This document shows positions 3,159-4,848 of a stretch of DNA of 64,000 bases, one piece after another. The stretch spans positions 31,744,001-31,808,000 of the forward strand of contig CM022672.1 of the NCBI GenBank assembly GCA_012295275.1, in the 5' to 3' direction. The stretch comes from Chrysomallon squamiferum. Taxonomy: Eukaryota > Animalia > Mollusca. The first letter of the stretch is position 1. Each line of letters starts with the position of its first letter. The notes beneath the pieces were generated by a model, which saw only the letters and a program-made list of their open reading frames with translations, searched no databases and was not told where the DNA came from. The position numbers and the translations under genes are program-made.

Positions 3159-3221
3159 GCCCTCTTTGTTTGTTTGACCGAGGCTTTCAACATGGGAGGC
3201 GGTTTATATGGATGTAATATG
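3159..3221 (+). CDS. Gly-rich protein exon: signal-peptide end and mature N-terminus (ALFVCLTEAFNMGGGLYGCNM)
   Basis: tttttcag acceptor, gtacga donor at 3222, 63 nt, phase 0/0. Different frame from the ORF-track call. Confidence 0.75.
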
Positions 3222-3392
3222 GTACGAATTTGAATTATTAAAAATAAAATGATTATAAAAAATTTGAAAAAATTGTTTTATAGTTTACATGCATTTCTAT
3301 GAAATGACAAAAACATCAGCTAATTCTCTATTTATTTATATATAATTACCATTTTATTTATTTATTAATTTATTATTATTATTAATTTTTTT

Positions 3393-3426
<34 letters not shown>

Positions 3427-4388
3427 TTTTTCATTTTATTATTTTTATTTTTTATTTATTTTTTTTTAAATTTTGTTCTCTTTAATGGTCAATAAAAACA
3501 AGTCAGTCATGTATTACCGTTATGCATTTTACAATGGAAATTAATAAAATTATTTTGACGTAATTATGTTATTTGCGTAATTTTTTAAATAATCCATACT
3601 GAAAATAGTCAAATTGATACGCTTCAATTAAAGAACGTAAACTAATTTTTAAAGTCGATATTTCAAATCAAAAACGTACAAGGTCAGTACAGTGCTATTC
3701 TAATTTACATATTTAATTTATGATAAAACATTTATTTGTTTTAATTTCAGTACACGTGCTCTCAAGGCTATTACTGTCAAATGCAGTTTCAAAGACCTAT
3801 TTGTATCTGTGAGTATTACAGTAACGACTACTGCAGCGTAATCACTACAATTACACTACTGTAACGACAACAACTACTACTACTACTAATACCTGTTTGT
3901 ATCTGAGATATTACTACAACGTAATCACAACAATTACACTACTGTAACGACAACTACGACTACTACTACTGCTATTATTCTATTATTACTACTTCTAATG
4001 CCTGTCTGTATCTGTGAATATTACAGCAACAACTAACTATAACGCAATAACAACAATTACACTACTGTAACGACAACTACGACTACTACTACTACTGCTA
4101 CTACTATTACCACTACTAATACCATTACTACTACTACTACTACTACTACCGGTGCTACTACTATTATTACTACAACAGCAGCTACTACTACTACTATTAC
4201 TATTACAACTACTACTATTACTAGTAGTACAACTACTGCTACTACGACCAACACTATTATTCTGACATTACTACCACAACAACACCAGCAACAACTATGA
4301 CGTAACTTTATTAATACTGTTGCTGCAGTAGCAATAACTACAACCACTACTATTACTATTACGACAGCTACTACTCCTTAATCACCAT

Positions 4389-4421
<33 letters not shown>

Positions 4422-4848
4422 AACTATTACTACACTAACATCAGTATCATTATAACTACCTTATTAATTTGTTTTGCTGTGTTTCCTTAAACTTGGTAAT
4501 GAACATGATACTAATTAATTAATTAAACGAGCAATTAACATAATAATTAATAACCTTTTGTTCTATTTAGGTCGGAACGGTGGAATGGGTGGAGGTATGG
4601 GTAATGGAATGGGGGGAGGAATTGGCGGCGGTATGGGGGGAGGAATTGGCGGTGGTATGGGGGGAGGAATTGGCGGAGGAGGAATCGGGGGTATCGGTGG
4701 AGGAGGAATTGGCGGTGTAGGAGGAGGAATGTGTTACCATGGATACCAGTATTACCCAAGGAATGGAATGAATGGAGGGATGGGTGGGGTAGGGGGGTTC
4801 GCCTCGGCAGCGGAGAAGAAGGGGCCAGCAAAAGCGATAAAGCCATAA
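3159..4848 (+). CDS. Secreted Gly/Met-rich protein with an N-terminal follistatin-N/EGF-like Cys module, 5'-partial; join(3159-3221,3751-3808,4571-4848)
   Basis: Three exons with canonical AG/GT sites splice in compatible phases (0,0,1) into ALFVCLTEA-FNMGGGLYGCNM-YTCSQGYYCQMQFQRPICI-CRNGGMGGG...KP*. ALFVCLTEA looks like the end of a signal peptide. AATAAA at 4865. Confidence 0.8.
3751..3808 (+). CDS. Gly-rich protein exon: Cys module (YTCSQGYYCQMQFQRPICI)
   Basis: ttaatttcag acceptor, gtgagt donor at 3809, 58 nt, phase 0/1. T+GT forms a Cys codon with the next exon. Confidence 0.75.
3809..4440. repeat. Intronic degenerate (ACT)n with three ~100-bp units that copy the exon/intron junction
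   Basis: cct(a/g)t(t/c)tgtatctg...caattacactactgtaacgacaac recurs at ~3795, 3891 and 4001. Confidence 0.85.
4571..4848 (+). CDS. Gly-rich protein last exon: (GGGM/GGGI)n, Tyr-rich motif, Lys-rich tail
   Basis: ttctatttag acceptor. Varied Gly codons (gga/ggt/ggc/ggg) indicate a coding repeat rather than a microsatellite. TAA at 4846-4848. Confidence 0.88.

What the first reader, a model, noticed from the sequence alone, without database searches (positions are those of the whole stretch)
3159..4848. Hidden secreted Gly/Met-rich structural protein with an orphan follistatin-N-like Cys module
Seen: two small exons missed by the ORF track splice in phase onto the Gly-rich ORF. The product has a signal-peptide end, C-x4-C-x5-C-x8-C-x-C (CNMYTCSQGYYCQMQFQRPICIC), about 50 residues of GGGM/GGGI, then CYHGYQYYP and a Lys-rich tail (~123 aa mature). 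Known: this spacing resembles the EGF-like N-terminal part of follistatin/SPARC domains, where Cys5 bonds into a following Kazal domain. Gly/Met repeats recall scallop abductin; Gly/Tyr repeats with a basic tail recall shematrin-type shell proteins. Inference: the Kazal part is replaced by a flexible Gly block, so Cys5 and the single distal Cys could close a loop or cross-link chains, with Tyr/Lys available for quinone tanning. This is the best candidate here for an undescribed biomaterial protein (shell, periostracum, operculum or ligament).
Basis: partly seen in the sequence, partly recalled or inferred. Interest (0 to 1): 0.8.

Follow-up and report, generated by a model that had tools for sequence, protein, structure and literature searches.

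The report
Snail glycine-spring protein with cysteine hairpin
Three short exons, likely from a snail, join in frame into a small orphan protein in which a predicted two-disulfide hairpin and tyrosine/lysine-rich ends flank a flexible glycine-rich block, so it is likely a cross-linked structural protein of the shell or skin matrix, a common class in molluscs, though its splicing and tissue are untested.

Summary
The sequence observation holds. Exons 3159-3221, 3751-3808 and 4571-4848 have AG/GT ends and join into a stop-free 132-codon frame. A second haplotype changes exon 4 by 4 listed substitutions, all synonymous (4 more were not listed), and a 12-nt in-frame deletion. The start exon was not found. 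No RNA covered exon 4, and the junctions are untested.

Cys1-4 have the C-x4-C-x5-C-x8-C spacing of the two-disulfide hairpin in eggshell CREMP, slime-mould spore-coat proteins, EGF and follistatin-N. Kazal-free copies are already known in structural proteins, so the module is not an orphan oddity. Cys5 and Cys6 enclose a 53-residue, 70% Gly block predicted to be disordered; Tyr and Lys lie only outside it. No full-length relative was found.

Best reading (0.6): a secreted, end-cross-linked matrix protein of a mollusc hard part or cuticle. Rival (0.2): a cationic Gly-rich defence peptide. It is neither abductin nor follistatin. A similar repeat in a published mantle-enriched snail gene is only a weak lead, as synteny was not supported. 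The scan's notes hold no earlier report of it.

The parts
3159..3221 (+). Coding exon A (first exon seen): hydrophobic end of a predicted signal peptide (cleavage after codon 9 judged by eye from the -3,-1 rule), a short Gly-rich stretch and Cys1
   Evidence: AG/GT ends and top-ranked acceptor of 216; hydropathy values; no RNA; least secure exon
3751..3808 (+). Coding exon B: Cys2-Cys4 of the two-disulfide beta-hairpin and the first base of the Cys5 codon
   Evidence: the model of this frame shows a hairpin at residues 9-22, mean pLDDT 74
4571..4848 (+). Last coding exon: rest of Cys5, Gly block, Cys6 with Tyr cluster, second short Gly/Met stretch, Lys tail, stop
   Evidence: frame-keeping haplotype
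4573..4731 (+). 53-residue GGGM/GGGI block between Cys5 and Cys6; varies in length by one 4-residue unit between haplotypes
   Evidence: predicted disordered, mean pLDDT 46.7 for the exon-4 peptide
4732..4758 (+). Cys6 followed by four Tyr (candidate cross-linking patch)
   Evidence: sequence; function inferred
4816..4845 (+). Basic tail holding all 4 Lys in the last 10 residues
4865..4885 (+). Three AATAAA polyadenylation-signal matches just after the stop
   Evidence: weak, since the region is 11% GC
3796..4120 (+). Three tandem copies (starting at 3796, 3892, 4001) of the end of exon B plus the intron start; only the first keeps the full GTGAGT donor

Best explanation
The three exons join in frame into a likely secreted 11.7-kDa structural matrix protein in which a predicted two-disulfide beta-hairpin and Tyr/Lys-bearing ends would be cross-linked into a network while the 53-residue Gly/Met/Ile block between them likely acts as a flexible spacer. 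Shown: the open frame, the Cys spacing, the composition, the confinement of Tyr and Lys to the ends, and a haplotype that keeps the frame. Predicted: the hairpin fold (Cys1-3 and Cys2-4, by analogy with CREMP) and the disorder of the Gly block. Inferred: secretion; Cys5 and Cys6 pairing with each other or between chains; oxidative Tyr/Lys cross-linking; deposition in a mantle- or epidermis-made layer such as periostracum, shell organic matrix, operculum or scale.
For: Open frame and coding-type variation. Cys1-4 spacing is identical to CREMP modules (Cys at 3, 8, 14, 23; C1-C3/C2-C4 by NMR; PMC12723725). An HMM from 9 such repeats of P0001 scores the N-terminal region 19.3 bits; 0 of 2000 Cys-fixed shuffles reach it (max 12.8). 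A two-sequence profile ranks CREMP 9PGB first among 11 PDB hits (E 2e-8, four repeats summed). The same hairpin builds eggshell membrane, spore coats and octopus egg threads. Secreted Gly-rich proteins are typical mollusc shell components, and one is co-expressed with a peroxidase in the periostracal groove (PMC7894901). Abductin has a like size and Gly/Met content, with terminal Tyr and Lys/Met cross-links proposed (PMC9999432).
Against: No RNA or protein evidence: 0 contigs in 3 RNA runs laid on exon 4. The start and most of the signal peptide are missing from the window. No relatives to test conservation of Cys5/Cys6 or Tyr. The HMM test is partly circular because P0001 was found with this exon. 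The exon-B stretch alone had 0 PDB sequence hits and only weak fold hits (E 3.8 or worse; Z 2.2 or less). The net charge of +6 fits a defence peptide equally well. The snail origin rests on unchecked notes.
Confidence: 0.6

Rival explanations
1. A cationic Gly-rich host-defence or microbe-binding peptide: the Cys hairpin and basic tail act on microbes and the Gly block helps attachment, as in crab hyastatin.
For: 7 Lys+Arg against 1 acidic residue, pI 9.15. Hyastatin joins a Gly-rich region to a six-Cys region (PMC11772090 passages). The exon-B frame weakly hits Pfam PF16839, a nematode antimicrobial peptide family (E 0.021).
Against: The PF16839 score (15.3 bits) is far below the 27-bit cut-off and P0001's repeat hits it too. 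No paralogue array in the window. All 4 listed haplotype substitutions are silent rather than diversifying.
Confidence: 0.2
2. The gene model is wrong or silent: only exon 4 (or exons B and 4) is used, exon A is a chance match, or the gene is not expressed.
For: No RNA cover; no start exon; other upstream stretches can supply Cys1 by chance; the neighbouring glutamine synthetase exon reads in three frames, which hints at small assembly errors.
Against: Three strong acceptors in a row give one open frame and a complete module; exon A has the best acceptor of 216 and a hydrophobic start; the haplotype keeps the frame.
Confidence: 0.12
3. A follistatin/SPARC-derived fragment that still binds a growth factor or cell-surface partner through its N-terminal hairpin, with the Gly block as a tether.
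For: C4-x-C5 matches follistatin domains (recalled). FSTL3 is the top Foldseek row (E 3.8), and FSTL3 and SPARC appear among the profile hits (E 0.17 and 1).
Against: No Kazal part follows; the hits are not significant and EGF domains score alike; CREMP scores better.
Confidence: 0.05

Closest known systems
CREMP / spore-coat / 'FOLN-like' two-disulfide module (PDB 9PGB; PMC12723725)
   Same: C-x4-C-x5-C-x8-C spacing, predicted beta-hairpin, and use in extracellular structural materials.
   Different: CREMP has 81 tandem modules in a 3,059-aa protein. Here one module is followed by two extra Cys and a Gly block.
EGF-like domain (Notch EGF5, octopus octovafibrin; PMC12723725 section 2.2)
   Same: 4-5-8 spacing of Cys1-4, then C-x-C, and six Cys in all.
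   Different: 53 Gly-rich residues separate Cys5 and Cys6, against about 8 in EGF (recalled). The third disulfide is untested.
Follistatin/SPARC FS domain
   Same: N-terminal hairpin spacing and C4-x-C5; weak FSTL3 and SPARC hits.
   Different: No Kazal part; 6 Cys rather than 10 (recalled); hits not significant.
Scallop abductin (PMC9999432 passages)
   Same: About 120-aa mature chain, Gly/Met-rich, predicted disordered, few Lys, Tyr near the ends.
   Different: Abductin repeats GGFGGMGGGX and is 58% Gly. This protein is 41.5% Gly, has no Phe in the block, uses Ile, and carries a six-Cys frame.
Gly-rich mollusc shell proteins: shematrins, KRMP, Lottia GMP/GRP, Cepaea Gly-rich-2/3
   Same: Small, basic, Gly-rich low-complexity proteins; lineage-restricted.
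   Different: Tyr lies outside the repeats here; no sequence match was found; expression in mantle is not shown.
Hyastatin-type Gly-rich antimicrobial peptides (PMC11772090 passages)
   Same: Gly-rich region joined to six Cys; cationic.
   Different: Opposite domain order, no Pro/Arg region, other Cys arrangement.

Membership tests
Follistatin/SPARC FS domain | N-terminal four-Cys hairpin followed by x-Cys5 | tested here: met
   spacing 4,5,8,1
Follistatin/SPARC FS domain | Kazal-like part with five further Cys directly after Cys5 (recalled definition) | tested here: not met
   53 Gly-rich residues and a single Cys follow; no Pfam family on exon 4
Pfam FOLN (PF09289) | Score above the curated cut-off | tested here: inconclusive
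   No FOLN hit for the exon-B frame, but that frame lacks Cys1; the spliced module was not scanned against Pfam
CREMP/spore-coat two-disulfide module | C-x4-C-x5-C-x8-C spacing | tested here: met
CREMP/spore-coat two-disulfide module | Similar non-Cys residues and beta-hairpin | tested here: met
   19.3 bits, 0 of 2000 Cys-fixed shuffles as high (partly circular); hairpin in the model; 9PGB top profile hit
CREMP/spore-coat two-disulfide module | C1-C3 and C2-C4 disulfides | not testable with these tools
   needs disulfide mapping; the model lacked Cys1
CREMP proteins | Long tandem runs of modules plus VWFD/C8 domains | tested here: not met
   single module; no second copy in the window
EGF-like domain | Six Cys with C4-x-C5 | tested here: met
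EGF-like domain | Short C5-C6 loop of about 8 residues (recalled) | tested here: not met
   53 residues in the spliced form
Abductin | GGFGGMGGGX repeat and about 58% Gly | tested here: not met
   no Phe in the block; 41.5% Gly
Shematrin/KRMP-type Gly/Tyr proteins | Tyr within the Gly repeats | tested here: not met
   Tyr only at mature 8-20 and 87-93; KRMP definition, shematrin detail recalled
Secreted Gly-rich mollusc matrix proteins (functional class) | Signal peptide | tested here: inconclusive
   only the hydrophobic end is in the window; start exon not found; no SignalP available
Secreted Gly-rich mollusc matrix proteins (functional class) | Mantle/epidermal expression and presence in the matrix | tested here: inconclusive
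   0 contigs in 3 RNA runs; identity with a published mantle gene not established

The most novel reading that the evidence does not exclude
This is an EGF-type six-cysteine domain whose third disulfide loop has grown by repeat slippage from about 8 to 53 Gly/Met/Ile residues and still varies in length between haplotypes. The Cys5-Cys6 bond would close a covalent elastic ring hanging from a rigid hairpin, and Tyr/Lys ends would tan such rings into a resilient, sulfur-rich layer of a vent snail's shell, periostracum or scales: a ring-spring design not found in the papers searched.
Probability: 0.15. Interest if true: 0.62.

Novelty: new variant of a known kind. Interest (0 to 1): 0.33.

Why it matters
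Insoluble, cross-linked Gly-rich proteins are easy to miss in shell proteomics: a recent vent-snail study identified no protein at all from its acid-insoluble fractions (PMC11871041). A 123-aa protein with one folded hairpin, one disordered block and defined cross-linking ends is small enough to express and test as a minimal elastomer, and would show an EGF/CREMP-type module being recruited into a low-complexity matrix protein. It stays modest because Gly-rich secreted orphans are common in molluscs, the module is known in other structural proteins, and no expression is shown.

Tried and rejected
Homologue searches that found nothing. Exon-4 peptide, lengths 50-160: 7,985 candidates scored, none at E<=10. 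Its C-terminal 42 residues, lengths 59-191: no candidates. Module alignment, lengths 77-2000: 75 candidates, none. Metagenome contigs: 0 pattern matches, and 598 matches with none confirmed. HMMER over 1.84 billion representatives with the 39-aa exon-B frame: one hit, P0001. ESM Atlas: leads under 0.9 only (EB, Dumpy DPY, EGF) and none for exon 4. These are weak negatives for short or low-complexity queries.

Folds: no Foldseek hit at E<=0.001; 2 of 48,161 chains at Z>=2.

No whole genome is held, so paralogues and the start exon outside the window are unexamined.

Published gene lead. CsqKR_Scaf312_1.12 in PMC7142155 has a GGMG repeat (period 4, 9.75 copies, residues 2-40) and is unannotated and 96.7-fold mantle-enriched. 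My scan of exon 4 also gives a GGMG consensus, but none of its six best blocks is 39 residues long, and a start at residue 2 needs a truncated model. Synteny was not supported: the four glutamine synthetase and two BTB6-like rows lie on other scaffolds (these tables list differentially expressed genes only), and the neighbour's repeat unit is not in the window. I saw only 20 of 69 'GGG' places in the repeat table. Kept as a weak lead (about 0.25), not as evidence.

Peptide strings were absent from 3 readable supplements of PMC11871041, but the sheet headers shown list accessions rather than sequences, one PDF was unreadable, one file too large and the spreadsheet was cut. BioRxiv supplements were closed.

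Read-through of the exon-B donor gives a further Cys seven residues on, then a stop. Rejected as the main form because that stretch is a tandem intron repeat. The Arg/Trp-rich second frame of exon 4 was rejected: it has a stop at codon 11 and is not the frame the splice selects.

Ten literature searches listed no paper describing this protein or this architecture; most hits were seen only as listings.

Full report
Observation. They join into a 132-codon frame with no internal stop. On a crude pyrimidine-tract score, acceptor 3159 ranks first of 216 AG sites in positions 1-5200, and the other two tie for second with two unrelated sites; the donors are ordinary. Exons are 38-57% GC in flanks of 11-33%. 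AATAAA signals follow the stop. A second haplotype in run X4 covers the laid stretch in one unspliced contig with a 12-nt deletion and 8 other letters; the 4 that the tool listed are all synonymous third positions. This supports coding constraint on exon 4, with the caveats that 4 differences were not listed, two lie near the deletion, and X4 may be related to the assembly's own sample.

What is not shown. No convincing ATG exon lies in the 3.1 kb upstream (15 candidates), so only the end of the signal peptide is seen. In 200,000 random two-exon joins, all 37 that produced the four-Cys spacing used the 3751 exon, but only 2 used the 3221 donor. Exon B is therefore the special one, and exon A rests on its acceptor, its hydrophobic start and its Gly-rich content.

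Anatomy. The predicted mature chain is 123 aa, 11.7 kDa, pI 9.15, with 41.5% Gly, 8.9% Met, 7.3% Ile and 6.5% Tyr. The six Cys are spaced 4, 5, 8, 1 and 53. The 53-residue block holds 37 Gly, 6 Met and 6 Ile and no Tyr, Phe or Lys. All 8 Tyr lie before it or right after Cys6, and all 4 Lys lie in the last 10 residues. A single-sequence model of the exon-B frame gives a beta-hairpin (mean pLDDT 74). The exon-4 peptide gives no confident structure (46.7), as expected for a disordered chain; Gly/Met stretches can populate polyproline II helices (PMC12571646 passages).

The Cys module. The only hit among 1.84 billion representatives was P0001, an unnamed 3,937-aa protein with SdrD_B repeats and tandem four-Cys modules without Kazal parts (E 1.6e-7 from 7 stretches). 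An HMM from 9 of its modules scores our N-terminal region at 19.3 bits, above all 2000 Cys-fixed shuffles (partly circular). A two-sequence profile ranks the CREMP structure 9PGB first, with FSTL3 (E 0.17) and SPARC (E 1) weaker. PMC12723725 (abstract, part of the main text and section 2.2 read) defines CREMP modules as C-x4-C-x5-C-x8-C hairpins with C1-C3/C2-C4 bonds, notes they are sometimes annotated as follistatin-N, relates them to Dictyostelium spore-coat proteins, and gives the same spacing for Notch EGF5 and for octopus egg-thread octovafibrin. PMC4931340 (passages) lists FOLN domains in spore-coat proteins. A Kazal-free module is thus a known building block of extracellular materials. 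The C4-x-C5 step fits follistatin and EGF alike. Foldseek gave only non-significant rows, mixing FSTL3 and EGF domains. Pfam FOLN was not hit, but the scanned frame lacked Cys1.

Relatives. No full-length relative was found in three word-indexed protein searches, two metagenome scans or two Atlas searches, nor a paralogue in the window. Earlier AI notes call this genome a snail, likely a vent snail; I did not verify that. [quoted passage not shown] The repeat resembles exon 4, but the window's neighbours, a glutamine synthetase and a BTB-BACK-PHR gene, could not be tied to that scaffold. It remains a weak lead and is not counted as evidence.

Mechanism. The layout is that of an end-linked network former: a folded, Tyr-bearing hairpin at one end, a Cys/Tyr patch and Lys tail at the other, and a long flexible hydrophobic Gly block between. 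By analogy with abductin, where cross-links through terminal Tyr or Lys/Met are proposed (PMC9999432 passages), with KRMP (PMC4498902 passages), and with a snail Gly-rich protein co-expressed with peroxidase in the periostracal groove (PMC7894901 passages), the protein would be secreted and fixed by disulfides and oxidative cross-links in an organic layer (0.6). Silk-like nacre proteins with Cys are proposed as framework connectors (bioRxiv 10.1101/2022.09.07.507049 passages). A cationic Gly-rich defence peptide like hyastatin is the main rival (0.2; PMC11772090 passages). A wrong or silent model (0.12) and a follistatin-like ligand binder (0.05) follow. PMC4094399 and PMC4944945 were seen as passages and only confirm that Gly/Met-rich and silk-like shell proteins are a broad class.

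Novelty. The functional class is well known and the module is known; their combination, with Cys5 and Cys6 bracketing a length-variable Gly block, was not found in ten literature searches or in the databases above. I rate it a new variant of a known kind, interest 0.33. The boldest reading not excluded is an EGF domain whose third loop has become a disulfide-closed elastic ring (probability 0.15, interest 0.62).

Noticed in passing
window 10222-15623 (+): Multi-exon glutamine synthetase gene (Pfam Gln-synt_N E 6e-12; weak Gln-synt_C). The exon near 14361-14563 reads in three successive frames, so it holds two apparent frameshifts: assembly errors or a damaged copy.
   Followed up: partly
window 51494-53083 (+): BTB-BACK-PHR gene (BTBD-like; Pfam BTB, BACK and PHR above cut-off); the BACK and PHR parts lie in different frames around 52640-52820.
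   Followed up: partly
window 3796-4120 (+): The last codons of exon B and the start of the intron are tandemly triplicated; copy 2 has lost the GT and copy 3 has a weaker donor-like site.
   Followed up: partly
window 4605-4877 (+): A second frame over exon 4 is open for 90 codons and reads as Arg/Trp-rich repeats; likely a by-product of the Gly codons.
   Followed up: partly
window 29101-29400 and 39301-39600 (+): Two similar non-repetitive stretches with near-identical translated segments, likely copies of a dispersed repeat or transposon fragment.
   Followed up: no
window 1851-2330: A GC-richer, non-repetitive island 0.8-1.3 kb upstream of exon A; could be a regulatory element, untranslated exon or repeat remnant.
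   Followed up: no
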